This document shows, piece after piece, positions 11,674 to 27,828 of a stretch of DNA of 64,000 bases. The stretch is from the IMG/VR virus record IMGVR_UViG_3300049144_000095, positions 32,001-96,000 of that record, one strand, 5' to 3'. The DNA comes from a virus. Lineage: Duplodnaviria; Caudoviricetes. The position numbers were made by a program, and so were the translations under genes. Within the stretch, counting starts at the first letter, position 1, and every line of letters starts with the position of its first letter. The notes below the pieces were generated by a model. That model made no database searches, was not told the origin of the DNA, and saw only the letters and a program-made list of their open reading frames with translations.

Positions 11674-12240
11674 TCAGCTACCGGTGCTGCCGACCTGAAC
11701 CAGGCCCTCGGAGGACTGGCCCTGCGGGTAGAAGGTCGGCTGAAGCTGAAGCGGAGCGGTGGCGTCGTTGACGACGTTCGGGTCACCCGAGAGGAACTTG
11801 AAGATCGTGACCCAGTCGTTGTTGGCCGCCTGCGGATCCCTCACCGGGTGCTTCGAAATCCGCTGTACGAGGTAGCCCGACCGCAGGGGCTTCTTGAACA
11901 GCCTCATCACGTCGTTGTAGATCGACGGGTCGAGCTTGTTCGGGTCGCGGTCCAGGAAGACGCTGAGCTGTCCCTCGTAGTTCTTGGCGGTCGGTGTCGC
12001 CACGTTCGAGTCGTCGCAGAGACCTCGGGTGTCATCCGTGTCGCGGTCCGTCCAGCCGAGCGTGATGTCGGTGGTCAGTGCGCACGAAATGTTCAGCCCG
12101 GCGTTGATCTCTGCGGCGGTCGGGTGGTCGAGGTCCGCAAACCCCTGACCGTACGTGCCTTCGTAACCCTCGGACGTCTGGTCCGACTCGTCCACCCACC
12201 AGATGGTAAGACTCGGTGGTAGACTTTTGACTGCTGCCAT
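11674..12240 (-). CDS. Major tail (tail tube) protein
   Basis: PTAAEINAGLNISCALT...DTDDTRGLCD...NYEG motif characteristic of actinophage tail tubes; start at 12240 after a GAGG RBS. Confidence 0.9.
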   Translation of the reverse strand: MAAVKSLPPSLTIWWVDESDQTSEGYEGTYGQGFADLDHPTAAEINAGLNISCALTTDITLGWTDRDTDDTRGLCDDSNVATPTAKNYEGQLSVFLDRDPNKLDPSIYNDVMRLFKKPLRSGYLVQRISKHPVRDPQAANNDWVTIFKFLSGDPNVVNDATAPLQLQPTFYPQGQSSEGLVQVGSTGS

Positions 12241-12297
12241 ATCGGTGTTTCCCTCCGGCCGGAAGGTGTGATCCTTCAGCCGGATCATAATGGGAAA

Positions 12298-12338
12298 GAC
12301 CCCCATTTGAGTGAGTGCCAGCCACTCAAATGGGGGTC
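12298..12338. terminator. Perfect 16-bp inverted repeat (hairpin) between the HNH and tail tube genes
   Basis: GACCCCCATTTGAGTG-agtgccagc-CACTCAAATGGGGGTC. Confidence 0.65.
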
Positions 12339-12366
12339 CAGGGAAGCGGGTTCTGCGAGTTCGTCG

Positions 12367-13392
12367 TCAATTCCGTGTCTGGGTATGGCTATTCATCCAG
12401 CGGATGATTTCCTCTCGAATGAAGAGAGATGGCTTGCCGACCCTGACTGGCCGAGGGAAGTCGGCCTTGCGCTTCCTGTAGGTCGGCAGGTAGGTACGTT
12501 CGATGCCGAGGATGTCGGCAACCTCGCCTGACGTGATGCAGCCCTCGCGCTTCACCCCAGGCGCTACCTCGACAGCCTCTCCTCCAGCACGTCTTGCATA
12601 GTTCCTCGCCGACTTTGCGTTCACGCAGATCCGGCACCGACGAACGTAGGAGACTTTGCCGTTCCGGGTGCGCTTCTCCAGGATGAGGTTGTCACCTTCG
12701 AGCTTGTGTCCGTCATCGCATCCATCGCGCTCGGCCTGATACTGACCCCGGCCTCGCACCCCCGTCTTTGGCTTATACGCCTCACGTCGGGCCGCCTTTA
12801 CCTCAGGACGTGCGTGGTACTCGCGGTTGTACGTCTGGCTGTAGGCTCGCTCGCAGGTCAAGCAGGTTCGCCATCCACTTTCACCGATCCGCGTGTTTTC
12901 TGGCGCGAACGCGTGACCTCTGTCGCAGTGCGTCTTCCGAGCGTTCTGAGCGGTGGGGCTGACGCCGCGCAGTGTGTTGACCTTCTGTGAAACTTGCTCC
13001 AGGTGCTCATGGTTCACACAGGGGCGAAACCGGCACAGGTGGTCGGTCTCGCGCTCAGGGTCTCGATCTCGACCGCCGACGATGACCCAGGCGTAGAGGT
13101 GCCCGAAGGCTGACCCGCCTTCAGTTTTCGACCAATCAGATCGGAACTGACTGTACCCCCAAGGGTTAAGCCCTCCGCCCCAGATGACGCAGTCCGGCTT
13201 GGCTCCGAAGATTCGCTGAACTTCCTTCGAGGGGTTCTTCAGAGTGTAGTAGTCGAACCGGGCAGCATCGCCAACTATGCGACTGCGCGGGATTCGGACG
13301 AGCTTTTTCCAGGCTACGAGATGGGCGGTGCACATTCCCCACGAAGAGGCGGCGTAAGCGCAATCACCCACCCAGCACGTCATGTTGGGCAT
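12367..13392 (-). CDS. Free-standing HNH homing endonuclease with Cys/His zinc-binding repeats and a C-terminal HTH
   Basis: DHLCRFRPCVNHEHLEQVSQKVN HNH core; KTHCDRGH...CLTC and CDDGH...CRIC repeats; C-terminal ITSGEVADILGI...FPRPVRVG (HTH_17/AlpA-like); GGAGG RBS before ATG at 13392. Confidence 0.9.
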   Translation of the reverse strand: MPNMTCWVGDCAYAASSWGMCTAHLVAWKKLVRIPRSRIVGDAARFDYYTLKNPSKEVQRIFGAKPDCVIWGGGLNPWGYSQFRSDWSKTEGGSAFGHLYAWVIVGGRDRDPERETDHLCRFRPCVNHEHLEQVSQKVNTLRGVSPTAQNARKTHCDRGHAFAPENTRIGESGWRTCLTCERAYSQTYNREYHARPEVKAARREAYKPKTGVRGRGQYQAERDGCDDGHKLEGDNLILEKRTRNGKVSYVRRCRICVNAKSARNYARRAGGEAVEVAPGVKREGCITSGEVADILGIERTYLPTYRKRKADFPRPVRVGKPSLFIREEIIRWMNSHTQTRN

Positions 13393-13502
13393 TTCCTCCC
13401 CCTTTCCATGAGTTTCGACGCTAATGGAGAGGGGTGCCATAAGTCAACCAATCATCACTTTCCCTTACCATTTGGTGGGTGGATGCATGTCGCCAAGCCG
13501 CT

Positions 13503-13985
13503 TCACGATCCGACGTCGCTGAACTTGCTCACGTTCACCACACCCTTGTAGCCGACGGCGAGATAGAACCGCAGGGTGTCCCCGATGCCGACGGGATACG
13601 GGTCGCGCACAGTGCCGGATCCCGCCTCCGACAGCTCACCCTGGTCGAGCGGAGCGTAGCCGTGAAGCAGGTCGCGGACCGCCTGGGAGAGCTGAAGGAG
13701 AGCCAGTCCCGAGGGGGCGACCGCCTGCACGATGAAGGCCGCCTGCTTCGTGGTCTCACCGTCTCCCGCCAGCCCGCAGAGGTCGGCAACGGTGATGCGC
13801 CCGCCGAACCCCGAAAGGTCAAATGCCTGGCCGAACCAGAGGATGACTGTCGGCTTGTACAGACCAGAGGGGTCCGGAGTGATCTCGTTGCTCTCGCCGA
13901 TACCTTCGAGGTAGACGGGGGTGTTCGGCAGTCCGAGGTCCACCCGGCGGTAGATGTCGAGTTGCCAGTCCAGAAGGGAGACCAC
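13503..13985 (-). CDS. Tail terminator protein
   Basis: 160 aa in the canonical position upstream of the tail tube gene; YKPTVILWFG...VRDLLHGYAP. Confidence 0.7.
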   Translation of the reverse strand: MVSLLDWQLDIYRRVDLGLPNTPVYLEGIGESNEITPDPSGLYKPTVILWFGQAFDLSGFGGRITVADLCGLAGDGETTKQAAFIVQAVAPSGLALLQLSQAVRDLLHGYAPLDQGELSEAGSGTVRDPYPVGIGDTLRFYLAVGYKGVVNVSKFSDVGS

Positions 13986-13986: not shown

Positions 13987-14349
13987 TCAGGCCTCCTTGC
14001 CTATGAGGTCCGCCAGAGCCTGCGGCCAGGACGTGAAACGCACCGCCCGATCGTCGAGGTAGCTCGTCGCGGGAAGCTTCCGGTTGGTCACCAGCAGAAC
14101 GCCCCGCTGGTTCCAGAAGTCCCAGACGTAGCTCGGGGGCCCGTCAACGGTCACATGGAAGCCGTGCTCCCTCAGCCAGGAAGCCACCTGCCACTTGTCG
14201 CGGCTGGTGAGGATGAACACGGCCTCCTCGATCATCAGCGACTTCAGTCCTTCGAGGGCACCCTCCACTGGTTCGTCGTAGATGGAGCCGTCGTGCCAGC
14301 CGCGTGAGTAGCGGTGCACGACCCCGTCGAAGTCCACTGCGATCGTCAT
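13987..14349 (-). CDS. HAD-superfamily phosphatase
   Basis: N-terminal TIAVDFDGVVH (DxDG), ILTSR motif II, K...YLDDRA motifs III/IV. Confidence 0.8.
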   Translation of the reverse strand: MTIAVDFDGVVHRYSRGWHDGSIYDEPVEGALEGLKSLMIEEAVFILTSRDKWQVASWLREHGFHVTVDGPPSYVWDFWNQRGVLLVTNRKLPATSYLDDRAVRFTSWPQALADLIGKEA

Positions 14350-14930
14350 GCTGCACTCCGTTCGCCGTGCGGTACGCGTGCCAGTTCGCGCATCCGGACC
14401 AGCCGCTTGTCGCTGACGCCGAAAGGGCGGTAGTGCAGACACCGAGCACAGCGCCCGCAGTCGCTGTTCGCCAGGACGGGGTGCTCGCACGTGCAGGCTG
14501 CGTGAGCCCTCTCGATCGCCGAGCAGTCTCCGTGGAACAGGCCCGCCTCTCCGCGCCACCACGGCCCGCGTGACCCGTGCCAGGAGTGCGAGACGTTCAC
14601 GGGGTCGCCCTTGCGGTCGCGCCCCTGGCACCAGGCGCACCGGGTCAGCAGGCGGCGCCGCAGAAGCTGGAGGGGGCGGATCTGGATACGCCAGTGGTGG
14701 AGGTGCAGTTTCCATCGCTTGCCCCGGCAGGTGACGTCGTCATGGCCCGAAGGGTCCCGGTGCCACACCGTGATCATGCCGGGCCAGTACAGGCCTCTCC
14801 CGGCCACGGTCCAGTAGGCACCTCTGAAGTCCCACCGGATGCCCTGCTTCAGGGCCACGCCGGTCTTCCAGGCGCTGCGACGGGGCCAGGGACGGGGGAT
14901 CTCCACCACCACGGTAAGGGGATCGTGCAT
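14346..14930 (-). CDS. Hypothetical Trp/Cys/His-rich phage protein
   Basis: 194-aa ORF overlapping both neighbours at start/stop codons; several CxxC/CxC motifs. Confidence 0.65.
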   Translation of the reverse strand: MHDPLTVVVEIPRPWPRRSAWKTGVALKQGIRWDFRGAYWTVAGRGLYWPGMITVWHRDPSGHDDVTCRGKRWKLHLHHWRIQIRPLQLLRRRLLTRCAWCQGRDRKGDPVNVSHSWHGSRGPWWRGEAGLFHGDCSAIERAHAACTCEHPVLANSDCGRCARCLHYRPFGVSDKRLVRMRELARVPHGERSAA

Positions 14931-15343
14931 CAGCGGCCCCCCAGGCGTGCGGAGAGTTCCGCCGTCACGGAGTTGAAGGCGTCGAACACGGCCATCATGG
15001 GCGTGATGCCGGTCCTGGTGCCGAACTCCTGGAACGGGGCGTAGAAGGGGTTCCCGTACTCCCAGCCGAAGGAGATCTTCAGGATGTCCGTACCGAAGTC
15101 TCCGGTCCCGGTGACGGAAGCCTTCATCTGGCCGGTGTCGACACGGGACTTGGCGCGCACCATCCCCTCACCCCGCCGACGGGCATTCGACAGGTCGAGC
15201 ACCAGCCGCTGGCGCGACTTGTTCAAGTGGTCGACAACGAAAGCCGACAGGCCGATATCGAAAGCACCGCCAGGCGTGCCTCCGCCGTAGTACCGCTGCG
15301 CACCGCCGAACCGGTAGTTGTACTTGATGCCGATGTAGGCCAT
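14930..15343 (-). CDS. HK97 gp10-like neck/tail-completion protein
   Basis: SRVDTGQMKASV...YAPFQEFGTRTGITPM matches the VDTG.L..S...YA.Y.EFGT signature. Confidence 0.8.
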   Translation of the reverse strand: MAYIGIKYNYRFGGAQRYYGGGTPGGAFDIGLSAFVVDHLNKSRQRLVLDLSNARRRGEGMVRAKSRVDTGQMKASVTGTGDFGTDILKISFGWEYGNPFYAPFQEFGTRTGITPMMAVFDAFNSVTAELSARLGGR

Positions 15344-15352: not shown

Positions 15353-16201
15353 CTACGCCTGGAGAGCCGCGCCCAGGGCTTCCTCTTCCGGAGCGGTGGG
15401 CAGGTTTTCTTCGAGGTCTATCACCTCATGATCCTTCAGTTCTCCGGCGAGAGCGTTCATTTCTTCCGACCGCATCGCGAGGATGCGGGCCGAACGCTGC
15501 TCCACCGTGCCTTCCGTGAGCTGAGTCCCCGGCCTGTTGTACCCGTGGAACCCGGCGTGGAAGGCGCGCGGGCGCGTCGTGTAGACGGTCTTCGCTCCCA
15601 TGGATTCGCGAATGCGGTTGATCAGGCCGTCCTGTTCGGCATGGCCCGCCGGAATGATGCTTCCGGGGAACATCCGCTGGCAGTACCGGACCATGTCGCC
15701 GTAGTACCCGGGCCCGTCGTGCGCCGTGATCCTGTCGGCCACGTCACGGCGCATGGAAACCCCCAGCGACTGATACGAGGGGTGGAGGTAGGCGGCCTCG
15801 CTTCTCGGCCTGATCTGGTTCTGGTTGCGGCAGGCGCTCACCGCGAAAGCCGAGGGGGCTATCCGGTGCATGGCTTCGTGGTACCTGAAGTACCCCCGCG
15901 CGACCAGGACATCGTCCTCGACGATGTGGAGCAGAGACCAGGGCAGGCGCATGCAGTCGCGGATGCCGGACATGACGTTGTAGGAATTGCCCCGGTATGG
16001 GTGATCGTGCATTTCCCGGAGGTAGATGGACGTGAAGCGCCGGGAGAACTTCTCCGCGACAGTCCTGCATTCCGGGTCGTAGGAACGGTCGAGGCTCACC
16101 ACGACAGACACCCCGTCAGGAGCTGCCTGCTCAAGGCACGTCAAGCAGGCATGCAGCATGTCGGGCCTGCGCCAAGCGGGGATGAGAACGACATGCTTCA
16201 T
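15353..16201 (-). CDS. Glycosyltransferase, GT-A fold (GT2-like)
   Basis: N-terminal VVLIPAWRRPDMLHACLTCL and HIVEDDVLV DxD-type motif. Confidence 0.8.
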   Translation of the reverse strand: MKHVVLIPAWRRPDMLHACLTCLEQAAPDGVSVVVSLDRSYDPECRTVAEKFSRRFTSIYLREMHDHPYRGNSYNVMSGIRDCMRLPWSLLHIVEDDVLVARGYFRYHEAMHRIAPSAFAVSACRNQNQIRPRSEAAYLHPSYQSLGVSMRRDVADRITAHDGPGYYGDMVRYCQRMFPGSIIPAGHAEQDGLINRIRESMGAKTVYTTRPRAFHAGFHGYNRPGTQLTEGTVEQRSARILAMRSEEMNALAGELKDHEVIDLEENLPTAPEEEALGAALQA

Positions 16202-16202: not shown

Positions 16203-16553
16203 TCAGTCCACCTTCGGTAGGGCGTGGAACGAGCCGTCTGCCGCGAAGACGGCCTTGATGTCAGCCAGTGGCACGTCGGTCAGCGATAGCCAGCAATCCC
16301 GGCACGGGGTGCCGTCCTCTGGCACAGGTTTGCCGCAATATCGGCACGGGGTGCCAGGTTCCTCCACGGGGCGGCCGCACGGGCTGGCATGGTCCGGATG
16401 ATCGGGGAAGCGGCACTCCTCGCGCCCGCCGGAAGCGCACGACCGGCACACGCCCGGGGTAATCCGGTCCAGCCAGGCCGGATGGAACACCTCGCCACAG
16501 AAGGAGCACGAGAACGGCACCCCGTGGCCAGTTCCAGGTCGGGTCATGGGCAC
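16203..16553 (-). CDS. Cys-rich zinc-binding hypothetical protein
   Basis: 116 aa with CSFC, CRSC, CRYC and CRDC motifs; coupled in the operon. Confidence 0.55.
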   Translation of the reverse strand: MPMTRPGTGHGVPFSCSFCGEVFHPAWLDRITPGVCRSCASGGREECRFPDHPDHASPCGRPVEEPGTPCRYCGKPVPEDGTPCRDCWLSLTDVPLADIKAVFAADGSFHALPKVD

Positions 16554-17449
16554 TGCACCAGCTTCAGGGCCACGTTACGAAACTCGGCGTTCCGCTTCAG
16601 CAGATGCTCCCTGGCGGCTTGGCCGACCTCACGCCTCCGGTGGGGAGTCAGTGCCGCCGCACGCTGCACCGCATCGATGATCAGCCCGGGGTCCGTGTAG
16701 GTCTGAAGGGCCTGGTGATGGCTTCGGGTTTTCGTCACTCCGAGCAGATAGCCCCACTCCGGCCGGATGTGCTCGTTCATCGGCGAGGCATCCGTTGTGA
16801 TCACAACTGCTCCGACGGACATGGCCTCGGTGATGTAGTGCCCCCAGCCTTCAGCGACTGAGGGGCAAAGGTGGATCTCGTGTTCGTTCATCAGGCGGTC
16901 CAGCTCCCGCCCGGTAGGCGAGATGACGACAGAGATGTGATCCGGTACGCGAACCGGCTCCTTCGAGACGATGGTCAACGGCGGGAGATCCGGATTCCGG
17001 CGCCACGCCTCGACCACTTCTTCGGTGCCCTTCATCTGCGACTTCCCGCGTACGTGAAGGCACTTCAGTTCCCTTGGAACCGCTGGGTCCATCCGGTCGC
17101 AGCCGAGGAACCCCGTGAGGCGCACGTCGCGGGCTCCCCGCTGACGGCAGAACTGTGCAGCGTATGAACTCTTCGCCCATATCTGGTCAAAGGCGGGCAA
17201 GTACTTCAGCCACTCGGTGGGGTACCACTCCAGGTTCAGCACGGCAATGTTCCGGTCGGCGCACTTGGCCAGGTTCCGGCTGACAAGCTCCAGGTGAAAG
17301 GCGACATCGGCGTGGTCCATCACGTCCGACTGCCAGTCCTCGAAGGAGACTTCATGTCCCGCCGACGTGAAAAGGTCCGTCAGCAGCTTCGCATCCAGTG
17401 ACAGGCCGACACCGTTATCCCGGCTGATGAGGGCAATTTTCAGCCCCAC
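16544..17449 (-). CDS. Glycosyltransferase, GT-B fold (GT4-like)
   Basis: HVRGKSQMKGT and HLCPSVAEGWGHYITEAMSVGAVVITTDASPMNE match the GT4 PS..EGFG....EAM..G.PV signature. Confidence 0.9.
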   Translation of the reverse strand: MGLKIALISRDNGVGLSLDAKLLTDLFTSAGHEVSFEDWQSDVMDHADVAFHLELVSRNLAKCADRNIAVLNLEWYPTEWLKYLPAFDQIWAKSSYAAQFCRQRGARDVRLTGFLGCDRMDPAVPRELKCLHVRGKSQMKGTEEVVEAWRRNPDLPPLTIVSKEPVRVPDHISVVISPTGRELDRLMNEHEIHLCPSVAEGWGHYITEAMSVGAVVITTDASPMNEHIRPEWGYLLGVTKTRSHHQALQTYTDPGLIIDAVQRAAALTPHRRREVGQAAREHLLKRNAEFRNVALKLVQCP

Positions 17450-17468: not shown

Positions 17469-18038
17469 TCAGGGTCCCGTGACCTCGGGATTCCAGACAA
17501 TCGGCTGCATCGAATACGGCTCTGGCAAAGTCTGCGGATGGCCCGCGTCCACGTCGCACAGGAGATTCCGCAGCCATGCGTTCGAGGACATCAGCGGGTT
17601 GCGCACATGAAGAAGATAGTGGCCAAGTTCTGGATCGCCCATGACAAGGTGACCGAGATCGGGGTCGTCCGGGTCCGGGGTGAAAGGCCTGACCAGGTCA
17701 TTGGCATGGATGGGCGGGCACTCGCGGATGGGCGTCTGAACCCGGATAGCGTGATCGGTGCCCATGTCGCCGCGCTGGGTCCTGACGCGCGCACGCCAGT
17801 CCTTGTTGTTCGCCAGCCGGGCTCGGCCCCGGTACAGGAGGACCAGCTCTGGATACTTCTCGCCGCCTTGCCCGTCCGGAATCGTCAGGCCGCCGGTGAC
17901 GGGATCAAAACCGTACTCATTACCTCGACTTGGTCTGCGGAATATCTCCACGGCGGCGTTCATGTGCCCGCGAGGAACCGACCGCTGATGCCATGCCCAG
18001 CGTGGATCCAGGGCCGTCCGCCTGTTGAGTGCAGCCAT
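17469..18038 (-). CDS. Head-to-tail stopper (DUF6093-like)
   Basis: ALDPRWAWHQRSVPRGHMNAAVEIFR...LYRGRARL; directly follows the adaptor gene. Confidence 0.75.
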   Translation of the reverse strand: MAALNRRTALDPRWAWHQRSVPRGHMNAAVEIFRRPSRGNEYGFDPVTGGLTIPDGQGGEKYPELVLLYRGRARLANNKDWRARVRTQRGDMGTDHAIRVQTPIRECPPIHANDLVRPFTPDPDDPDLGHLVMGDPELGHYLLHVRNPLMSSNAWLRNLLCDVDAGHPQTLPEPYSMQPIVWNPEVTGP

Positions 18039-18092
18039 GCACCCATTCTGCACGCAGATCTGGACAGAGATTGCTGTGGATTTCGATTCGGT

Positions 18093-20221: not shown

Positions 20222-20298
20222 TTCACCACCTCGGCGCTTTCACGGAAGCGCTGGCCGGTGGAATCTTGTACGGATTCAGCAAATACGGAGGCCCCATC

Positions 20299-20847: not shown

Positions 20848-20905
20848 ATATGCGGACCCTTCGGCAGACGGAAAAGATCACAACAACGCGTGAGGGTGGG
20901 CGTGG

Positions 20906-21157
20906 GTGAAGAAGACAGGCGTGGCACTGCTGGCGGAGAACGACCAACTCCGAATGGCCATAGCTGATGCTCTGAGTCGCCTGGACGGGGGCGCCCTGTC
21001 TGTGAAATGCGTTTCGTGCGGCGCGAGGCCGAGACTGTCCTGCTGCGACGATGACCCCCTGCCGTTCCCGCATGCGGCCCGAGTGAAGCAGGCGACAGAC
21101 GCCTTGCGGCAGGTGCTCGTGGATGCCCTCAAGGAGTCGGGGCCGATTCGTCAGTGA
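20906..21157 (+). CDS. Hypothetical protein
   Basis: 83 aa with CVSC...CC motif; co-oriented within the island. Confidence 0.55.
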   Translation: MKKTGVALLAENDQLRMAIADALSRLDGGALSVKCVSCGARPRLSCCDDDPLPFPHAARVKQATDALRQVLVDALKESGPIRQ

Positions 21158-21485
21158 CACCTCGGGCCGGACCGTCACCTGGCGGGGGGTCGATGGGTTC
21201 CGCTCTGCCGAAGGCGTCCGGCCACCAGCGGCTTCGCCGCAGATCGCTGAACCGGCCGTCTCTTCCCGAAGGGGGAAACTCGACAACTTACTGAAAATAG
21301 AACACGGTTGAGAATCAACAGCGGGATCGGATGCTCCTTCGGGTGACTCCGGTCCCGTCTGTCTTTCCAGAATCTTCAGGAGGATGGTTTCTCTTTCGTG
21401 TCCCAACCTGAAAGACTCACCTCCGGCGAGGGTCCGGCCGCCATGAAGCGGCGGCACTGGCTGGCGAGAAAGTCCGGCGGAAAGG

Positions 21486-21890
21486 TTGGCGGGGATGGCG
21501 CGAAAGCAGAACGTCTTGGGCCTCCTGCTGAGAGCTGGATCACTCCTCTTCGTGGCTCTCGTCATGGCCTTCAGCCCGTACTGGCCAGTGTCCTTCGTCT
21601 TCTTCTACTCCGCCGTCCTCATGCTTGGGCGGTTCAAGTATGAGGACGGCAGGAGAAGGCGCCGCAATGCTGAGCAGCAGTGGTGGGCCCGCCAGAAACG
21701 CGGCATCGTGCAGCCGCCGCTCGAACCCTGCTGCCTGCGTCACGACGACACGGGCTTCCTTCACGACCTGCTCTGCACGCGCGACCGCAGCGGCGAGGTG
21801 CCGACAGGGCCGGGGGGTTTCAGCGTGGACTGGGACCGGCTGGCGGCTGTGGAGCTGGGCAACCCGGATTCTGGAGAGGGCATTCAGTGA
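21486..21890 (+). CDS. Putative membrane protein
   Basis: Two N-terminal hydrophobic segments followed by a basic stretch. Confidence 0.6.
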   Translation: MAGMARKQNVLGLLLRAGSLLFVALVMAFSPYWPVSFVFFYSAVLMLGRFKYEDGRRRRRNAEQQWWARQKRGIVQPPLEPCCLRHDDTGFLHDLLCTRDRSGEVPTGPGGFSVDWDRLAAVELGNPDSGEGIQ

Positions 21891-22249
21891 GTCTGCAACG
21901 CACCATGGACGATCCGCTGGCAGAGATAGCGCGCCTTCGGGACGGCGAAGAAGACGGCTGGACCGAAGCGGCCTGGCCGAGGCCGGGCCAGTACCTGAAG
22001 AGGCTGCACGAGCTGGACTCCGAGCAGCGCATTCAGAGCCTGGCGAACCTGCTCGGGGCTGCTGAAGCAGCCCATGCGTGTCTCGTGGGCATGCACCAGG
22101 AGAACCTTCAGGAGCTGCGTCAGCGCGCCATGAATTCCTGGTCCGCGCTCACCAGGATCGCCGGGCTGTGCCGGGACCCCGAGAGGGACGGCTTGATCCA
22201 TGTGAGCGAGATCGTCGAGCTTCTTCCCCCTGCTCTCCGGTACGGATGA
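21887..22249 (+). CDS. Hypothetical protein
   Basis: GTGA coupling with the previous ORF; helical 120-aa product. Confidence 0.6.
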   Translation: MSLQRTMDDPLAEIARLRDGEEDGWTEAAWPRPGQYLKRLHELDSEQRIQSLANLLGAAEAAHACLVGMHQENLQELRQRAMNSWSALTRIAGLCRDPERDGLIHVSEIVELLPPALRYG

Positions 22250-22297
22250 GTCCGGCCGGTCAGTGAAGTTCGACTGAAGCAGACGGAAGGGGAAACC

Positions 22298-22750
22298 ATG
22301 GGAGACGTGCGCGACCCGGAGCGCGACCAGCCGCTGCCCAAGCCCGGAGGGCTGCCCGTTCAGGAGATCATGATCGGCGTCATCAGGGAGCGGCGCGAGT
22401 ACGGCAAACGCAAGTACGGCCGCCCGCTGGAGACGCACAACGGACGCGATGCCCTGAAGGACGCCTGGGAAGAAGCGCTGGATCTGTTCACCTACCTCAC
22501 ACAGCTCCGGCTGGAGCGCGGTGACGTCCTGCCGGGCATGAGCGGGACCGAGGAGGTGGAGCAGGGTGCCTCTGTGCGCACCTCCGTGCGGCAGAAGGAC
22601 CCGCTGGCGGAGCTGATACCGCACAAGTGTCTCCGCTGCGGGCACCGGCCGCATTTGCCTGGTCAGTGCCTGGGTGAAGCTCCGTCGGGGCTCGCCAACT
22701 GCCAGTGCGGCGCCGAGGCCCTGGTCGAGCGAGTACTCGGCACGCTTTAG
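22298..22750 (+). CDS. MazG-like nucleotide pyrophosphohydrolase-fold protein
   Basis: KRKYGRPLETHNGRDALKDAWEEALDLFTYL (EExxD) plus a C-terminal Cys/His cluster. Confidence 0.55.
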   Translation: MGDVRDPERDQPLPKPGGLPVQEIMIGVIRERREYGKRKYGRPLETHNGRDALKDAWEEALDLFTYLTQLRLERGDVLPGMSGTEEVEQGASVRTSVRQKDPLAELIPHKCLRCGHRPHLPGQCLGEAPSGLANCQCGAEALVERVLGTL

Positions 22751-22772
22751 CGAACAGGCCCGGAAAACCCGG

Positions 22773-22797
22773 GAGCCCCCGCCAGAGGCAGGGGCTC
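22773..22797 (+). terminator. Hairpin terminator closing the plus-strand island
   Basis: GAGCCCC-CGCCAGAGGCA-GGGGCTC followed by TTC. Confidence 0.55.
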
Positions 22798-23007
22798 TTC
22801 GGAAAGGAGAAGAAACGCAACTGGGCCGACTAGAGCGACACAGACGTCCCTACTCACGGACGGGGAGGGTGAGTCCCACGCCACGTCCAAGAATGTACCC
22901 CATGGCGGGGATTGATGCCAACCGTTAGCGGTGGAGTCCAGGAGTGGCACGCTGTGCCAACAACCGATCTTCCCTTTGTGCTCCAGTCCGTAGCGCAGGA
23001 GTGAACG

Positions 23008-23046
23008 CACGAAGACCCCCCGCCTGCATGTCGGGGGGTCTTCGTG
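23008..23046 (-). terminator. Hairpin terminator downstream of the major capsid gene
   Basis: 15-bp perfect stem CACGAAGACCCCCCG/CGGGGGGTCTTCGTG with a 9-nt loop. Confidence 0.75.
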
Positions 23047-23123
23047 TTGCCCGGCAGGGACGGAAGCCGGGCAGGGGCGGTCGAGATCTATCCCGGGTCA
23101 CCCGCCGCCCGGCTTGTCAGCGG

Positions 23124-24440
23124 TCAGGAGCCCGCCGGGCCCGAGACCTTCGGGCCGCTGGTGATCGAGGCCATCCGGACCGAGTTGTCCTGACCCGTAC
23201 CCAGCGACACCGCCACCGCCGACGCGTCGATACCGGCGGCGCCGATGATCGAACGCACGCGGTACTGGATGTCGTCGTGGCTGAACGAACCCTCGAAGGC
23301 GCTGATGTCGCCGCCGCCGAGCGCACGGCCCGTGTCGCCCATGACCCGCACCTCGGGGGTCTCGTGACCACGCAGGAACGCCGTCACGATCGCCGGACCA
23401 CGGTCGGTCTGGCCACCGGCCGGAACCAGGTACCAGGTCGTCGCGGCGTTGACCGAGTTGTCGATGAGCGGCAGCCAGGGGCTCTCGACCACCGTGAAGC
23501 GACCGGCGATCGGCGAAGAGACGTTCTGGCGGATCTCGGAACCGTCGGCCGCCGTGCGCACCCGCAGGTACGTGGTGCCCTGCGCGATCTCCTGCGCGGT
23601 GAGCGCGAGGGACGGCGGAACGAGCAGCACGAAGTTCTGCACGCGGACCTGTCGGCCCGCGACGGTGCGCATGCCGATGTAGTTGATCGCGTGCTCCAGC
23701 GCGTCGAGCGTCAGAGCGGGGTTGCCGGGGACGAAGTTGCCCTCGGGGGCGTGGCCGCCGAAGTCCTCGGTCGTGTTGAAGAAGTCGGGGTTCGGGCCGC
23801 TGGACGTGGCGAGGACACCCGTGGTCAGGACGTCCTCGGTGTCGCGGGCCCACCGCGCCATCTCCGTCGGGAGCTGCGAGAGGACCCGCAGCTCGTCGTT
23901 CATGAAGGCTTCCCACGAGAAGGGGAACCGGGCGCCGTACTTGTTGACGAAGTAGTCCGAACCCTCGGTGGTGAGGTTGAAGGTCGGGTACTCCGTCAGC
24001 TCCGGGATGCGGGGCAGGGCCCGGACGTGGCGCTCGGCGCCGCCGTTGTAGTCGGTCGTCTGCGACTGACCGGCGACCGCGTCCCAGCGGACCATGCGTG
24101 CGGGCCGGAAGTCGGGCACCGTGGTGCGCACGGAGAACGTCGGCCACTGCTGCGGCAGCTCGGCGTACTGACCGAGCATCGACGCCTGGCTGATCGACTG
24201 GAACAGCAGGGGGAAGTCGCCGGACGAGACGGCTTCACGCAGTCGGCCCATCGCGACCGGGGAACCGGTCTCGGCCTCACGCTTGAGGCGCAGGAACTCG
24301 ACGGCACGGGCCATCTTCACCAGACGGGCGTCGGCGCTCTCGCGGAGTGCGGCGCGGCGTCGACCGTGAGCCTCGGCGATCCGAGCGAACTCAGGGTTCG
24401 TGGTCGCCTTGATTCCGTCGAGGAGGTTCAGGGCAGTCAT
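23124..24440 (-). CDS. Major capsid protein (HK97 fold)
   Basis: 438 aa after the decoration gene; SSGDFPLLF...VPDFRP...KYGARFPFSWEAFMNDEL...LLVPPSL pattern. Confidence 0.92.
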   Translation of the reverse strand: MTALNLLDGIKATTNPEFARIAEAHGRRRAALRESADARLVKMARAVEFLRLKREAETGSPVAMGRLREAVSSGDFPLLFQSISQASMLGQYAELPQQWPTFSVRTTVPDFRPARMVRWDAVAGQSQTTDYNGGAERHVRALPRIPELTEYPTFNLTTEGSDYFVNKYGARFPFSWEAFMNDELRVLSQLPTEMARWARDTEDVLTTGVLATSSGPNPDFFNTTEDFGGHAPEGNFVPGNPALTLDALEHAINYIGMRTVAGRQVRVQNFVLLVPPSLALTAQEIAQGTTYLRVRTAADGSEIRQNVSSPIAGRFTVVESPWLPLIDNSVNAATTWYLVPAGGQTDRGPAIVTAFLRGHETPEVRVMGDTGRALGGGDISAFEGSFSHDDIQYRVRSIIGAAGIDASAVAVSLGTGQDNSVRMASITSGPKVSGPAGS

Positions 24441-24457: not shown

Positions 24458-24943
24458 TCAGGATCCGGAAGCGGTCTTGTCGGGGACCGCGTTGGTGTCG
24501 CCCGGGGTGGGCTGGACCACCTTGACGATCGGAACGCCGTCGGTCGTCTGGCCGACGATCGTGCCGAAGGGGTCCGAGTTCGACGCGGTGGTCAGAGTGG
24601 CGCGGGTGTTGCCCGAGGCCGCCACGATGAACACGGGGGTGCCGCTGCCCTTGGTGGTGGGGTCCCAGCCGGTGACCGGGAAGGCGAAGCAGCCTTCCAG
24701 GGCGACCGAGGCCCAGCCGGGCGCGAGCGAGTTCGCCGGGTTGCGGGTCTGGGTGACCGTGGTGTCGCCGATGGTGTAGGAGACGGACTTGCCGCCGACC
24801 TCCTGCGCGAAGCCGACGATCGAGCCGATCTTCACCGGGTCACCGGCGAGGGTCGGGTCGTCGTTCTTGTGCGGGTCGTTGCCCCGCAGCGGCAGCGGGA
24901 GGGAGACCCACTGGCCGTACTTGAAGATCTCGTTCTTGGCCAT
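24458..24943 (-). CDS. Capsid decoration/cement protein (DUF2190-like)
   Basis: GDPVKIGSIVGFA...ASVALEGCFAF...GTPVFI...FGTIV; lies between scaffold and capsid genes. Confidence 0.8.
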   Translation of the reverse strand: MAKNEIFKYGQWVSLPLPLRGNDPHKNDDPTLAGDPVKIGSIVGFAQEVGGKSVSYTIGDTTVTQTRNPANSLAPGWASVALEGCFAFPVTGWDPTTKGSGTPVFIVAASGNTRATLTTASNSDPFGTIVGQTTDGVPIVKVVQPTPGDTNAVPDKTASGS

Positions 24944-26025
24944 CAGTAGGTCCCTCCCGACAGGAGGTCGCGGATCTCGTTGAGGTCGCTGTCGGACGCG
25001 GACGAGCTGCTGTAGGACGCCGACGCCGACTCGGTGAGGCCGAGGTTCGAGGACTGGTGCTCCAGGCCGGACCGCTCGGTCTCGCGCAGGAGCTTCTTCA
25101 GGTACTCGCGCTCGTGGTTGATCGACTCGTGCAGGTCCTGGTCCGGACGGTAGGACTGCGCGAGGCGGATCATCGAGGGAAGGGGGAGCTTCGCCTCAAG
25201 CAGCTCGGTGAGAACGTCACCGGTGCTCTTCGACTCCTTGAGCGCCTTGTCGGCGGCCTCGGCGCGGTCACGCAGGTACGTGATCGCCTCGGCGAGCTTC
25301 TGGTTCTCGCGAGCCTGCTTCGCGGACTCGCTCTGCGCCTCCCGGAGCGCCTGCGCCATGCGGGCCACGTCGACCGAAACCTGGTCGAGGTTTTCCTTGA
25401 CGCTCTCCTTGAGGGCGGCGACCTCGTTGCGCAGGTCACCCGACCCCAGGGTAGAGGGAATCGTGGTGGGGGCAGATCCCGCGCTGGGGACTGCTGCGGT
25501 CTGCTCTACCGGAGGGGACTCCGGCGCGGCCGACTCGGTCATAGTGACGAGCCTTCCTCCCGCTCCAGCGCGGGTGACGAGGTCAACGGAAAGGCCCTCG
25601 GAGATCTGGCGGACTATTCGCCCCGAGGGAGTCTCTTCGATCTGGCCAGCAGCTCGGATCGAGAGCCCGATGACTTTGTTGAGTTCCTGTACCAGGGACT
25701 TGGCGTTCTCGGTGAACTGGACGCGCGAGAAAAGACCTCGCCCGTCCTTTCCGTCCTCGAACGTAGCGTCGTCGAGCAGGTAGCCAGCCAGGTCCCGGAC
25801 ACTGCGCTCCGGACGCTCTTCCTCTTCGGTCTCCGTGGGGTGATCGAAGTAGATGTGCGTTCCGGCGGGAAAGGCCGTGGCCCCGTCACGGATCAGGACA
25901 TCAGCCGGGTAGTAACCGCTGCTGCCCTGGATGTCAGCTTCGATGAGGCATACGCGCCAGATACCTTTGCCGGACGACGGGTCCGGCGTAAGGGTTGCGG
26001 ATTCCCGCAGCGTCTCCTGGTTCAT
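24943..26025 (-). CDS. Capsid maturation protease-scaffold fusion
   Basis: GSSGYYPADVL...IYFDHP...SVRDLAG...GLSIRA...SVDLVTRAGAGG protease motifs followed by a coiled-coil C-terminal half. Confidence 0.88.
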   Translation of the reverse strand: MNQETLRESATLTPDPSSGKGIWRVCLIEADIQGSSGYYPADVLIRDGATAFPAGTHIYFDHPTETEEEERPERSVRDLAGYLLDDATFEDGKDGRGLFSRVQFTENAKSLVQELNKVIGLSIRAAGQIEETPSGRIVRQISEGLSVDLVTRAGAGGRLVTMTESAAPESPPVEQTAAVPSAGSAPTTIPSTLGSGDLRNEVAALKESVKENLDQVSVDVARMAQALREAQSESAKQARENQKLAEAITYLRDRAEAADKALKESKSTGDVLTELLEAKLPLPSMIRLAQSYRPDQDLHESINHEREYLKKLLRETERSGLEHQSSNLGLTESASASYSSSSASDSDLNEIRDLLSGGTY

Positions 26026-26097
26026 ACGCCCCCTCGCTGATCAACGACGAGGCACACACTAATAGCACTGGGGGGCAAATGTCCCAACCGAAGTGCA

Positions 26098-27828
26098 TTA
26101 ACTTCCTTCGTCTCGCAGTTCGTGGTCTGCGTAGGACATGGGGTCCGGCTGCTTCGGGGCCGCAGTTGCACGCGAGTTTCCCGCCTTGAGCGGGGATGGT
26201 GCACCGGGTCCACCCGTGCCAGCGGGAGGAGTATTCCTCGAATTACTGCCTGATTGATCGGAGTTTGGCTTCGAATCAACCTTGGGGATTCCCTGGCCTG
26301 TTCCTCCCGCCACATAGGGAAGCTGGTCGAGCGTCGGAGCCTTCCTGCCGAAATCCTTCCACTTGTCGTGGAAGGCGTCGAGGGCCATCGCCCTCGCCTC
26401 TTCCGCCGAGACGAGCCCCAGGCGGATCAACATGTCGAGAGCCTGCATGCGCCGGTGCACCGGCTCCTCGGAAATCTCCGGCCACCGCAGCCGGACCTTG
26501 AGACCCAGCACCTTGAAGATCTGACGGAACGTCTCGTCCATCACCTTCTGGCGGGACTGCATCACGAGAATCGTCGACTGGTCGAGCGACGTGGCGCCCG
26601 CATTGTTGGCGATCGACGGGTCCTCCAGAAGCGCAGGCAGGGGCACATCCAGAGCGGAGGCCACCATCGATGCCAGGGGTCGGCCCGATTCAAAGTCGAC
26701 CTTGGTGTTGCCGCCTACCGCCGACAGATCCTGCCCCGCTCCAAGGACTGCCGAGGCCCCCACGTTCAGAGGCTGCCCTGTCGCCGGATCCACGCGGGGG
26801 GCTTGCGCCATGGCGGCAGCCGTACGGCGGACCGACCGCGACTTGTCGGAGGTGACCTTCCAGGCGAAGCGTGCGTACGCCTTCGTCAGCGTCGCGCAGT
26901 TTTCCAGGAACTCCTTGTACGCCTTGGTCCACCAGACTGCCGGAAGCACGTCGGGGATGCCCCAGCGCCAGCCCGTCAGCCGGTTGAACGGAACGTGGAC
27001 CAGAACCTTCGAGTTGTCGACAGGGTCTCCCGCGATGGTCCCCGCCCCCCGGCCCCTGCCCATGGCCCTCAGTCCGGCGGGCGTCGGGTACCAGACGTCC
27101 CGGAATGAGAACTTGGCGGCCCCGCCCGAATCGCCTTCGCGGTCGGCGCGGATCCAGCTCCGGCCCCTGGCGACCGCTTTGGGTGCCGTGATGGGGTTCA
27201 GCTCGATGTCGGCGCCGAAGTCCAGTTCGAGATCCCAGTCGTTCCAGGTGCGGCGGATGTACATCAGGCGCTCCCTGTTGCCGCGCTGAGACACCCCTTC
27301 GGTTATCTCCTCGAAGGGGATTCGCTGCACCTCCTTGGATCGGCGGTCAACCAGAAAGAAGAGATTCCCGTCGGTTCCGGCGGTGCGTTCCAGTTCGAGC
27401 TGTGCCAGCGGACCTGTCAGAACTTCCGCGATTCCCTCGGGAAGTTCCGGCTCTACGTTCACAGTTCGTGGGCGGCCGGGCCCCTGGATGAATTCCTCGG
27501 GAACCACTGAAACGCCGGATCCCCAGATGTACCCGGTTCGTACTCGCAGGCCGCGACCCACGAGGGGATTGACGGTCGCCACGGCGCGGCACAGCTCGCT
27601 GGCGTTATGCAGAGCGTCCAGGGTGAAGGTGTTCGCCCCCTCGGTGGGGCCCATCAAAGGGCGCCACCCGATGTCTTCCAGGGCGAGTTGCACGCGGCCG
27701 AACTCGCCTGCCTCGCGCATCTCTTCCGTGACAAGTCCCGTAAGTTCCTCGTTGCGGGCTTCGAGATTCGCCACGAGCGTCTGGATTTCCGTCAGCGACA
27801 GCTCTTCGACGGGCCTCTTCATCTGCAT
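26098..27828 (-). CDS. Portal protein
   Basis: 576 aa between TerL and protease; VATVNPLVGRGLRVRTGYIWGSG and DGNLFF motifs; TAAGGT 6 nt before the ATG suggests a leaderless start. Confidence 0.9.
   Translation of the reverse strand: MQMKRPVEELSLTEIQTLVANLEARNEELTGLVTEEMREAGEFGRVQLALEDIGWRPLMGPTEGANTFTLDALHNASELCRAVATVNPLVGRGLRVRTGYIWGSGVSVVPEEFIQGPGRPRTVNVEPELPEGIAEVLTGPLAQLELERTAGTDGNLFFLVDRRSKEVQRIPFEEITEGVSQRGNRERLMYIRRTWNDWDLELDFGADIELNPITAPKAVARGRSWIRADREGDSGGAAKFSFRDVWYPTPAGLRAMGRGRGAGTIAGDPVDNSKVLVHVPFNRLTGWRWGIPDVLPAVWWTKAYKEFLENCATLTKAYARFAWKVTSDKSRSVRRTAAAMAQAPRVDPATGQPLNVGASAVLGAGQDLSAVGGNTKVDFESGRPLASMVASALDVPLPALLEDPSIANNAGATSLDQSTILVMQSRQKVMDETFRQIFKVLGLKVRLRWPEISEEPVHRRMQALDMLIRLGLVSAEEARAMALDAFHDKWKDFGRKAPTLDQLPYVAGGTGQGIPKVDSKPNSDQSGSNSRNTPPAGTGGPGAPSPLKAGNSRATAAPKQPDPMSYADHELRDEGS

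What the first reader, a model, noticed from the sequence alone, without database searches (positions are those of the whole stretch)
11674..27828. Four virion proteins all end in Gly-Ser: candidate C-terminal glycosylation tag
Seen: tail tube ends ...VQVGSTGS*, major capsid ...KVSGPAGS*, decoration ...DKTASGS*, portal ...ELRDEGS*. Scaffold, adaptor, stopper, Dit and tape measure do not. Two glycosyltransferases sit in the same operon. Known: some mycobacteriophages O-glycosylate the C-termini of capsid and tail-tube subunits using phage-encoded glycosyltransferases. Inference: a terminal GS is the acceptor signal of a glycan-coated virion in this probable Streptomyces phage, possibly extending to decoration and portal proteins. 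To my knowledge that has not been shown.
Basis: partly seen in the sequence, partly recalled or inferred. Interest (0 to 1): 0.85.

Follow-up and report, generated by a model that had tools for sequence, protein, structure and literature searches.

The report
Gly-Ser end tags on phage virion proteins
Several outer proteins of this large Streptomyces phage end in the same two residues, Gly-Ser. That tag is conserved in relatives, travels with a phage sugar-adding gene set, and also sits on the mycobacteriophage proteins reported to be sugar-coated, so the particle is probably glycosylated; this extends a known phenomenon and has not been tested on these phages.

Summary
In this 251-kb phage, a relative of Streptomyces cluster BM phages such as Satis, 6 of 23 structural-block genes end in Gly-Ser against 4 of 319 elsewhere (Fisher p = 8e-6).

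How well each tag is conserved:
- **Decoration protein:** 25 of 27 distinct tails end in GS, at 38-83% identity, using all four Gly codons.
- **Tube, terminator, capsid:** conserved in the core clade.
- **Four non-structural GS ends:** not conserved.
- **Portal:** not conserved. It looks like a truncated ancestral ...RDEGSx tail and is probably incidental.

Relatives without glycosyltransferases lack the decoration, tube and terminator tails. The capsid and tube proteins of glycosyltransferase-bearing mycobacteriophages Che8, Corndog, Brujita and Marvin also end in [G/A/D]-Ser. The tube ends in Ser in 7 of 7 lineages with glycosyltransferases and 0 of 8 without.

The enzymes differ from Che8's: a GT4-like GT-B, a GT13-like GT-A with an EDD motif, and a Methyltransf_24 O-methyltransferase.

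Verdict: probably C-terminal serine O-glycosylation, a new variant of the known mycobacteriophage system with more substrates. It is untested. This scan has noted similar serine-tag and glycosyltransferase pairings on other DNA.

The parts
1..170 (-). 3' end of a 160-aa gene at the end of the tail module (genome 31688-32170). It ends ...LLDGS. Function unknown; an Ig-like, gpJ-C-like fold is only a weak lead.
   Evidence: orthologues in G001, G002 and G004 also end in GS, with different residues before it; atlas score 0.78, a lead only. No Pfam or PHROG hit.
11674..12306 (-). Major tail (tube) protein, ending ...VGSTGS. The last ~14 residues extend beyond the homology with outgroup tubes.
   Evidence: phrog_2491, E 3e-31. 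Relatives end STGS, STAS, ICGS, PCGS, TPGS, AVS or EIS. Alignment to Arthrobacter and Curtobacterium tubes stops at residue 196 of 210. The Ser codon switches between AGC and TCG.
12367..13440 (-). HNH homing endonuclease with a C-terminal HTH, inserted between terminator and tube. Not part of the system.
   Evidence: phrog_826, E 3e-38. PF12728 weak.
13503..13985 (-). Tail terminator (160 aa), ending ...FSDVGS.
   Evidence: BLASTP to the Nonagon 'tail terminator' (E 2e-6) and to Amigo gp30, plus its position just upstream of the tube. Ends in GS in all core-clade relatives with variable residues before it; NS and SS further out; lost in the 43-55% group.
13987..14349 (-). 120-aa HAD-like protein with a DFDGV motif. 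A possible sugar-phosphate phosphatase; its link to the system is uncertain.
   Evidence: phrog_1238, E 2e-15. PF18143 weak. Coding GC pattern and an ATGA stop/start overlap with the upstream ORF.
14930..15343 (-). Tail-completion (Neck1-like) protein, untagged. It marks the downstream border of the glycosyltransferase insertion.
   Evidence: phrog_5. Homologous to Amigo gp29 and Jojan60 p7. Ends ...GGR in relatives.
15353..16201 (-). GT-A-fold glycosyltransferase (282 aa) with a conserved V-E-D-D motif. Soluble.
   Evidence: PF13641 weak; the Satis orthologue passes PF00535. AF2 model pLDDT 88. Best PDB matches are GnT-I, POMGnT1 and GnT-II, E 1e-10, TM ~0.55. Invariant E95 and D97. No hydrophobic segment.
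16203..16553 (-). Cys-rich 116-aa ORF between the two glycosyltransferase genes, specific to this phage. Function unknown.
   Evidence: No Pfam or PHROG hit. Absent in relatives, where the two glycosyltransferase genes abut or overlap.
16544..17449 (-). GT-B-fold, GT4-like glycosyltransferase (301 aa from the start that aligns with relatives). Soluble.
   Evidence: PF00534 at 32.3 bits against a cut-off of 26.4, plus PF13692. phrog_2170. 70-75% identical in relatives.
17469..18053 (-). Head-to-tail stopper (DUF6093), untagged. It marks the upstream border of the glycosyltransferase insertion.
   Evidence: PF19586, E 7e-17. Homologous to the Nonagon stopper gp40.
23124..24440 (-). HK97-type major capsid protein, ending ...SGPAGS. 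It carries a ~22-residue Gly/Ser/Pro-rich C-terminal extension.
   Evidence: phrog_133. Alignment A1 shows the extension beyond the outgroup ends; homology to distant capsids stops at residue 396 of 438. Relatives end PSGS, KSGS, AKS or KSS; Lys-rich tails without Ser occur in the 70-78% group.
24458..24943 (-). Head decoration / head-fibre protein (161 aa), ending ...KTASGS. The last ~16 residues form a disordered extension.
   Evidence: BLASTP to the Amigo 'head decoration' and Nonagon 'head fiber' proteins. 25 of 27 distinct tails end in GS, using the codons GGA, GGT, GGC and GGG. The extension is absent in the 37-38% relatives. In the AF2 model the tail has pLDDT <50, and the best weak fold matches are chains in phage capsid structures.
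26098..27828 (-). Portal protein, ending ...ELRDEGS. Its GS is not conserved and is probably incidental.
   Evidence: phrog_10963. Relatives end RDE, RDESTS, RDEGSE, RDEGSQEDADNED or RDEGTQ....
33273..33830 (-). SAM-dependent O-methyltransferase (Methyltransf_24), the probable third enzyme of the system.
   Evidence: PF13578 at 48.7 bits. 78% identical to the Satis gp15 'O-methyltransferase'. Homologous (E 1e-20 to 1e-23) to the methyltransferase that lies between GT-B and GT-A in the diverged cassettes L148 and L149, and next to them in G006 and G007.

Best explanation
**Proposed mechanism.** The exposed, multi-copy virion proteins carry short disordered C-terminal tails whose last residue is Ser, usually Gly-Ser-COOH. 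These proteins are the decoration protein, major capsid protein, tail tube, tail terminator and probably a 160-aa tail-end protein. In the host cytoplasm late in infection, soluble phage enzymes would O-glycosylate that serine and extend the glycan, giving a sugar-coated particle. The enzymes are co-expressed with the structural genes: a GT4-like GT-B, a GT13-like GT-A, probably a second GT-A paralogue, and a Methyltransf_24 O-methyltransferase that would methylate the sugar.

**Shown here:**
- the tags exist;
- they are conserved and under selection;
- they are extensions that relatives without glycosyltransferases lack;
- the enzyme folds and families;
- the conserved GT-B / methyltransferase / GT-A cassette;
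- the same terminal Ser on mycobacteriophage capsid and tube proteins.

**Inferred, not shown:**
- that a glycan is attached at all;
- that the final Ser is the attachment site;
- which enzyme primes the serine (GT-B is my guess, by analogy with the GT4 protein O-glycosyltransferases GtfA and SdgB);
- the biological role (masking, stability, adhesion).

The portal's GS is probably an accident of tail truncation.
For: 1. **Enrichment.** 6 of 23 structural-block genes end in GS against 4 of 319 elsewhere, p = 8e-6.
2. **Selection.**
   - Decoration tails end in GS in 25 of 27 distinct sequences at 38-83% identity, with all four Gly codons and variable residues at positions -3 to -8.
   - The tube Ser is kept through an AGC/TCG codon switch.
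   - The four non-structural GS ends are not conserved in their orthologues.
3. **Tags are extensions.**
   - They sit beyond the conserved fold: homology stops at capsid residue 396 of 438 and tube residue 196 of 210, and the decoration tail is ~16 aa.
   - The decoration tail is predicted to be disordered.
4. **Distribution.**
   - All seven near-complete large relatives keep GT-A and GT-B, plus a homologous methyltransferase where checked (G001, G002, G004, G006, G007).
   - In all five whose full sequence I examined, the decoration protein ends in GS.
   - Relatives without glycosyltransferases lack Ser ends on tube, decoration, terminator and portal proteins. These are Amigo, Molivia, Nonagon, Jojan60, L059 and L062, none of which has a PF00535, PF00534, GT-A or GT-B match.
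5. **Independent lineages with unrelated structural proteins.** In glycosyltransferase-bearing mycobacteriophages the capsid / tube ends are:
   - Che8: GS / GS
   - Corndog: GS / DS
   - Brujita: AS / GS
   - Marvin: GS / GS
   - Baka: tube LS

   In L5, TM4 and Giles, none ends in Ser; these three had no PF00535 match and are glycosyltransferase-free to my knowledge. The tube tally is 7 of 7 against 0 of 8 lineages, Fisher p ~1.6e-4.
6. **Literature.** Che8, Corndog and Myrna virions are reported as glycosylated at capsid and tube C-termini. This is Freeman et al. 2023, as described in PMC12619734 and PMC12363180.
7. **Gene position.** The glycosyltransferase genes lie inside the late neck operon, between stopper and tail-completion genes that are adjacent in the outgroups. 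The enzymes have no membrane segments.
8. **Methyltransferase.** A Methyltransf_24 methyltransferase accompanies the glycosyltransferases, as in Che8 gp108 and Corndog gp35.
Against: - No glycan has been observed on any phage of this lineage.
- The glycosyltransferases show no BLAST similarity to Che8 gp108-110 or Corndog gp35-38 and belong to other families.
- Within this capsid family the association amounts to one evolutionary event, so it is not statistically independent.
- The wider lineage comparison used hand-picked phages.
- Capsids of Molivia and Jojan60, which have no glycosyltransferase, also end in GS. Baka has glycosyltransferases but its capsid does not end in Ser.
- In G006 and G007 the glycosyltransferases are kept although the capsid tail is Lys-rich, and in G006 the tube and terminator also lack a terminal Ser.
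- The structurally closest enzymes to the GT-A (GnT-I, POMGnT1) extend glycans; they are not known to prime serine.
- The complex prediction gave no answer.
- I could not read Freeman et al., so I cannot confirm that the final Ser is the mapped site.
Confidence: 0.68

Rival explanations
1. The glycosyltransferases act on another substrate: phage DNA bases, host wall polymers such as teichoic acids, or small molecules. On this view the conserved Gly-Ser ends serve an unrelated purpose, such as assembly contacts, protection from C-terminal-specific proteases, or recognition by a chaperone.
For: Phage glycosyltransferases commonly glucosylate DNA or alter host surface glycans (PMC12619734). The genome has a further GT-A paralogue in the replication arm. 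The GT-A's nearest structures act on glycan acceptors. G006 and G007 keep four glycosyltransferases although fewer proteins are tagged.
Against: The GT-B / GT-A pair sits inside the late neck operon between structural genes. The genome has no thymidylate-synthase-like hydroxymethylase (PF00303) for a T4-type sugar-accepting base. The enzymes have no membrane segments. Terminal Ser on tube and capsid tracks glycosyltransferase presence across unrelated phage lineages.
Confidence: 0.15
2. The Gly-Ser ends are functionless leftovers of flexible, Gly/Ser-rich disordered tails. On this view the clustering in structural proteins reflects composition and shared ancestry, not a signal.
For: The capsid family ends in G/S-rich sequence even without glycosyltransferases (Molivia ...STGS, Jojan60 ...GSGS). 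The portal GS is explained by truncation of ...RDEGSx. Four non-structural proteins also end in GS by chance.
Against: Gly and Ser are invariant at the decoration end across 25 distinct tails, with four synonymous Gly codons, while neighbouring residues vary freely. The tube keeps Ser through a codon-class switch. The enrichment has p = 8e-6. The same ending recurs on unrelated mycobacteriophage capsid and tube proteins.
Confidence: 0.07
3. The terminal serine is a real modification site, but it is used by a host enzyme or for a non-glycan modification such as phosphorylation, nucleotidylation or acylation. The phage glycosyltransferases would then be coincidental.
For: Molivia and Jojan60 carry GS-ended capsids without any phage glycosyltransferase. 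A host-dependent modification of a mycobacteriophage tail protein has been reported (PMC13445384).
Against: Decoration, tube and terminator tags are absent in every relative without glycosyltransferases that I examined, and present with the glycosyltransferase cassette. In Che8 the phage glycosyltransferases are reported as essential for capsid glycosylation (PMC12363180).
Confidence: 0.08

Closest known systems
Mycobacteriophage virion O-glycosylation (Che8 gp108-110, Corndog gp35-38, Myrna; Freeman et al. 2023, Cell Host Microbe 31:1216). The paper is not held here; it is described in PMC12619734 and PMC12363180.
   Same: - Phage-encoded soluble glycosyltransferases together with a Methyltransf_24 O-methyltransferase.
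- Capsid and tube subunits end in a C-terminal Ser, usually Gly-Ser.
- In Corndog and Baka the enzymes also lie inside the structural gene block.
- Corndog and the BM phages both have prolate heads (PMC11600133, PMC6687918).
   Different: - The enzymes are not orthologous: GT4-like GT-B plus GT13-like GT-A here, against GT2 and GT25-type GT-A enzymes there, with no BLAST similarity.
- Extra tagged proteins here: decoration, tail terminator and a tail-end protein. Marvin's decoration protein and the Che8 and Baka terminators are untagged.
- The host is Streptomyces and the genome is 251 kb.
- No experimental evidence here.
Cytoplasmic O-glycosylation of bacterial serine-rich adhesins by GT4-family GT-B enzymes (GtfA/GtfB of streptococcal serine-rich repeat proteins; SdgA/SdgB of staphylococcal SD-repeat proteins, PMC3794999). 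The streptococcal example rests on my own knowledge.
   Same: A soluble GT-B (Glycos_transf_1) enzyme primes Ser residues in disordered segments before export or assembly, and other glycosyltransferases extend the glycan.
   Different: Those systems modify long internal Ser-rich repeats. Here the conserved feature is a single Ser at the very C-terminus. Homology beyond the shared Pfam family was not tested.
GT13 / GT16 GlcNAc transferases (GnT-I, POMGnT1, GnT-II), the nearest solved structures to the GT-A
   Same: GT-A fold with an E-D-D metal/nucleotide-sugar motif. Foldseek E ~1e-10, TM ~0.55.
   Different: 17-18% identity. Those are eukaryotic Golgi enzymes that act on mannose acceptors. 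The similarity shows the fold and a probable inverting, metal-dependent mechanism. It does not identify the sugar or the acceptor.
Phage DNA glucosyltransferases (T4 alpha- and beta-GT and related DNA-hypermodifying enzymes)
   Same: Phage-encoded soluble glycosyltransferases that use nucleotide sugars.
   Different: Those genes sit with early or replication genes and need hydroxymethylated bases. Here the pair sits in the late neck operon and the genome has no PF00303 homologue.

Membership tests
Mycobacteriophage-type virion O-glycosylation system (Freeman et al. 2023) | The phage encodes its own glycosyltransferases. | tested here: met
   GT-B: PF00534 at 32.3 bits, above the cut-off. GT-A: confident GT-A fold model, EDD motif, PDB matches at E 1e-10. 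A paralogue elsewhere in the genome.
Mycobacteriophage-type virion O-glycosylation system (Freeman et al. 2023) | The glycosyltransferases are homologous to Che8 gp108-110 / Corndog gp35-38. | tested here: not met
   No BLASTP hit better than E ~2. Che8 enzymes fall in PF00535 and PF01755; the window's fall in PF00534 and, weakly, PF13641. Homologues of Che8 gp109 occur in no Streptomyces phage. Homologues of the window's GT-A among cultured phages occur only in the seven BM phages.
Mycobacteriophage-type virion O-glycosylation system (Freeman et al. 2023) | Capsid and tail-tube subunits carry the acceptor at their C-terminus. | tested here: met
   At sequence level only. The window's capsid and tube end in GS, like Che8, Corndog (GS / DS), Brujita (AS / GS) and Marvin (GS / GS).
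Mycobacteriophage-type virion O-glycosylation system (Freeman et al. 2023) | An associated sugar O-methyltransferase. | tested here: met
   Window 33273-33830: PF13578 at 48.7 bits, the same family as the Che8 gp108 C-terminal domain and Corndog gp35. It is contiguous with GT-B and GT-A in diverged relatives.
Mycobacteriophage-type virion O-glycosylation system (Freeman et al. 2023) | Glycans are actually attached to virion proteins and depend on the phage glycosyltransferases. | not testable with these tools
   This needs glycostaining, MS and knockouts on a cultured relative such as Satis or Kela.
GT-A fold, metal-dependent glycosyltransferases | Rossmann-like GT-A fold with a DxD-type motif. 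| tested here: met
   AF2 pLDDT 88, pTM 0.89. Top 50 PDB matches are all GT-A enzymes. V-E-D-D is conserved, with E95 and D97 invariant in 10 sequences.
T4-type DNA glucosylation (considered as a rival) | A pathway that makes hydroxymethylated pyrimidines (thymidylate-synthase-like hydroxymethylase). | tested here: not met
   No PF00303 match in the 251-kb genome, while the control genomes were detected. Other kinds of DNA glycosylation were not tested.

The most novel reading that the evidence does not exclude
A free C-terminal Ser, typically Gly-Ser-COOH on a short disordered tail, is a minimal and portable 'glycosylate me' tag read by unrelated phage glycosyltransferase systems. Any virion protein could then be brought into or dropped from the glycan coat by moving a stop codon or adding a few residues. 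That would explain the lineage-to-lineage turnover seen here. The decoration protein is always tagged. Capsid, terminator and tube are tagged or untagged in different subclades. The portal is tagged sporadically.
Probability: 0.3. Interest if true: 0.7.

Novelty: new variant of a known kind. Interest (0 to 1): 0.55.

Why it matters
Phage virion glycosylation has been demonstrated only in a few mycobacteriophages, where it shields particles from antibodies. If this reading is right, four things follow.
- The trait extends to a widespread lineage of very large Streptomyces and soil phages.
- It uses a different enzyme set.
- It covers more of the particle: decoration protein, terminator and a tail-end protein.
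- A terminal Gly-Ser would be a simple sequence mark for predicting glycosylated virion proteins in genomes, and a possible handle for glyco-engineering phage particles.

Several relatives are in culture (Satis, Kela, Frankenweenie and others), so the prediction can be tested directly.

Tried and rejected
- **Source paper.** Freeman et al. 2023 could not be read by DOI, PMC id or PubMed id. Its content is taken only from citing papers and my memory of the abstract.
- **Complex prediction.** GT-B + GT-A + decoration protein scored 0.00, no answer. This is not evidence either way.
- **Decoration fold.** The AF2 model was mediocre (pLDDT 63). Foldseek found no match at E <= 0.001; the best weak rows were chains in phage capsid structures. 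They are suggestive only.
- **Other GS-ended proteins.** PHROG and Pfam scans of the tail-end 160-aa protein and the four non-structural GS-ended proteins found nothing. The atlas gave only a 0.78 lead for the tail-end protein.
- **Myrna.** PF05065 did not find its capsid gene, so Myrna was dropped from the comparison.
- **Gene calling.** My simple gene caller under-called genes in relatives: it missed the G002 capsid, tube and decoration genes. I therefore ran the enrichment test only on the window's own genome and compared relatives by tblastn.
- **Diverged cassettes.** The 20-kb neighbourhoods of L148 and L149 held no recognisable capsid or tube genes, so they could not test the tag.
- **Operon structure.** The promoter/terminator consensus scan was uninformative.
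- **Portal as a fifth substrate.** Rejected for lack of conservation.
- **HAD phosphatase.** Reading the full 242-aa ORF 13987-14715 as a HAD phosphatase was rejected. Only its last 120 codons look coding and HAD-like.

Full report
**What the window is.** The window is bases 32001-96000 of a 251,159-bp phage genome with 65% G+C. From portal to capsid it is about 80% identical in nucleotides to seven Streptomyces phages: Satis, Kradal, Quantum, EhyElimayoE, Kela, JustBecause and Frankenweenie, all 184-200 kb. These belong to cluster BM, siphoviruses with very long prolate heads (PMC6687918).

The structural genes lie on the minus strand, in this order:
- terminase
- portal
- protease/scaffold
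- decoration protein
- major capsid protein
- a ~4.4-kb block of small ORFs, most on the opposite strand
- adaptor-like protein
- stopper (DUF6093)
- GT-B
- a Cys-rich ORF
- GT-A
- tail completion
- two inserted ORFs
- tail terminator
- an HNH endonuclease
- tube
- chaperones
- tape measure
- minor tail proteins

**Checking the observation.** Two more were missed. One is the 160-aa protein at 13503-13985. I identify it as the tail terminator from its position and its homology to the Nonagon tail terminator and Amigo gp30; it ends ...FSDVGS. The other is a 160-aa gene at the end of the tail module, which crosses the window's left edge (genome 31688-32170) and ends ...LLDGS.

With my own codon-usage gene calls, 10 of 342 proteins in the genome end in GS. 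Six are among the 23 minus-strand genes of the structural block and four are among the other 319 (Fisher p = 8e-6). Amino-acid composition predicts about 0.6% per protein.

**Conservation separates signal from chance.** I used three annotated relatives, 80 IMG/VR loci and five complete IMG/VR genomes (G001, G002, G004, G006, G007).

- **Decoration protein:** 25 of 27 distinct tails end in GS over 38-83% identity. The residues just before vary freely (KTAS, KLAT, QPAT, RAPA, MPI, GPV, KPVI...). The Gly uses all four codons.
- **Tube:** ends STGS, STAS, ALAS, ICGS, PCGS or TPGS, and AVS or EIS in the ~50% group. Ser is kept across an AGC/TCG codon switch.
- **Terminator:** ends in GS throughout the core clade and in NS or SS further out. 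The tail is lost in the 43-55% group.
- **Capsid:**
  - ends PSGS, PAGS or KSGS in the core clade;
  - ends AKS or KSS on longer Ser-rich tails in L016 and G001;
  - in the 70-78% group it carries a Lys/Pro/Ala/Thr-rich tail ending in K.
- **Tail-end 160-aa protein:** ends in GS in G001, G002 and G004 with different residues before it.
- **Four non-structural GS ends:** not conserved in their orthologues. One is kept only in the closest relative.
- **Portal:**
  - ends RDE in Satis and G001, RDESTS in Kela and Frankenweenie, RDEGSE in G004, RDEGSQEDADNED in G007, and RDEGGQAHTD in Nonagon;
  - so the window's RDEGS is best read as a truncated ancestral tail, not a selected tag.

**The tags are add-ons.** Homology with distant capsids stops at residue 396 of 438. 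Alignment A1 shows a ~22-residue extension beyond the ends of the Amigo, Nonagon and Jojan60 capsids. Homology with distant tubes stops at residue 196 of 210. The decoration tail (~16 residues) is absent from the 37-38% relatives and from the Amigo and Nonagon proteins. AF2 models it as disordered.

**Association with the enzymes.**
- All near-complete large relatives (G001-G004, G006-G008) have orthologues of both glycosyltransferases.
- In G006, G007 and in two more diverged contigs (L148; L149 from an Actinomadura assembly), the genes form a contiguous cassette: GT-B, Methyltransf_24 methyltransferase, GT-A.
- The homologous O-methyltransferase of this phage sits at 33273-33830 (PF13578, 48.7 bits).
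- In the BM-like phages GT-B and GT-A are inserted between the stopper and tail-completion genes, which are adjacent in Amigo, Nonagon and Jojan60.
- Amigo, Molivia, Nonagon, Jojan60, L059 and L062 have no PF00535, PF00534, GT-A or GT-B match. Satis and Che8 were detected as positive controls. None of their tube, decoration, terminator or portal proteins ends in Ser.
- Their capsids are mixed: TS, GS, AA, GS, IS and VV. The capsid end alone is therefore weak evidence.
- The ~50% group carries a different glycosyltransferase (PF02709 / GT2-like) near its structural genes, and terminal Ser on capsid and tube only.

**Independent lineages.** I read the ends of capsid and tube proteins in mycobacteriophages with Che8-type glycosyltransferases.

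| Phage | Capsid end | Tube end |
|---|---|---|
| Che8 | NKTGS | YSDGS |
| Corndog | PLVGS | IKGDS |
| Brujita | ETAS | EAGS |
| Marvin | PQGS | FGGS |
| Baka | APSF | VGLS |

L5, TM4 and Giles have none ending in Ser. They had no PF00535 match and lack glycosyltransferases to my knowledge.

Counting lineages, the tube ends in Ser in 7 of 7 with glycosyltransferases and 0 of 8 without (Fisher ~1.6e-4). The sample was hand-picked. Che8, Corndog and Myrna virions are reported as glycosylated, with glycans at the C-termini of capsid and tube subunits (PMC12619734; PMC12363180).

**The enzymes.**
- The GT-A model is confident (pLDDT 88). Its best solved matches are GnT-I, POMGnT1 and GnT-II, followed by many other GT-A enzymes. 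A V-E-D-D motif is conserved.
- The GT-B passes the Pfam threshold for Glycos_transf_1.
- Neither enzyme has a hydrophobic segment.
- They show no BLAST similarity to Che8 gp108-110 or Corndog gp35-38, which are GT2- and GT25-type.
- Among cultured phages this GT-A family occurs only in the BM cluster. It is abundant in metagenomes, with at least 263 homologues, many on contigs of 140-250 kb.
- A GT-A paralogue lies at genome 19277-20134.
- No thymidylate-synthase-like hydroxymethylase is encoded, which argues against T4-style DNA glucosylation.

**Conclusion.** The pattern is real, selected and tied to a conserved phage glycosylation cassette. The best reading (about 0.7) is O-glycosylation, probably with methylated sugars, of the C-terminal serine of decoration, capsid, terminator, tube and a tail-end protein. 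It would work like the mycobacteriophage system but with non-orthologous enzymes and a wider substrate set. The portal tag is probably incidental.

Nothing here shows that a glycan is present. Which enzyme primes the serine, and what the coat is for, are inference. This scan has recorded similar serine-tag and glycosyltransferase pairings in other phage genomes. Those are unchecked AI notes and I do not count them as evidence.

Noticed in passing
window 12367-13440 (-): A 357-aa HNH endonuclease with a C-terminal HTH lies between the terminator and tube genes. Homologues sit at the same site in G006 and G007. It is absent in Satis-like phages, and the closest relative G001 has ~6.6 kb inserted there. 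The site looks like a hot spot for mobile genes.
   Followed up: partly
window 13987-14930 (-): Two extra genes lie between tail completion and terminator, joined by an ATGA stop/start overlap. One is a Cys-rich 194-aa ORF (14346-14930). The other is a 120-aa HAD-like protein with a DFDGV motif (13987-14349; phrog_1238 'phosphoheptose isomerase', E 2e-15). HAD hydrolases also lie near the diverged GT-B / methyltransferase / GT-A cassettes L148 and L149, so a sugar-phosphate role is possible.
   Followed up: partly
window 16203-16553 (-): A Cys-rich 116-aa ORF with several CxxC pairs is wedged between GT-B and GT-A in this phage only. It has no family match. In relatives the two glycosyltransferase genes abut or overlap.
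   Followed up: partly
L039-L047, L049, G006, G007 (capsid C-termini); G001 and L016: In relatives with 70-78% capsid identity the Gly/Ser tail is replaced by a Lys/Pro/Ala/Thr-rich tail ending in K, for example ...KTTATKPTTAK. In G001 and L016 it is a longer Ser-rich, mucin-like tail. The capsid tail is a fast-evolving module of unknown meaning.
   Followed up: no
genome 19277-20134 (-), about 12 kb left of the window: A second GT-A paralogue (31% identical to the neck-operon GT-A) lies outside the structural region. Relatives G001, G003, G006 and G007 also carry extra paralogues.
   Followed up: partly
window 18681-23123: A block of small ORFs, most on the opposite strand, splits the head genes from the neck and tail genes. 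The equivalent block is about 9 kb with ~19 genes in Satis.
   Followed up: no
L149 (NCBI assembly GCA_039536785.1, 56-kb contig); P0019 and P0046 (253-kb and 185-kb contigs labelled Streptomyces): Homologues of the GT-A occur on phage-sized contigs inside assemblies labelled as Actinomadura and Streptomyces. These are probably co-assembled phage genomes or prophage-like elements of this lineage.
   Followed up: no
L019 (Stenotrophomonas phage Jojan60) and L061 (Arthrobacter phage Molivia): The capsid proteins of these phages end in ...GSGS and ...STGS although no PF00535, PF00534, GT-A or GT-B match was found in their complete genomes. Either this is an ancestral G/S-rich end or a host enzyme uses it.
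   Followed up: partly
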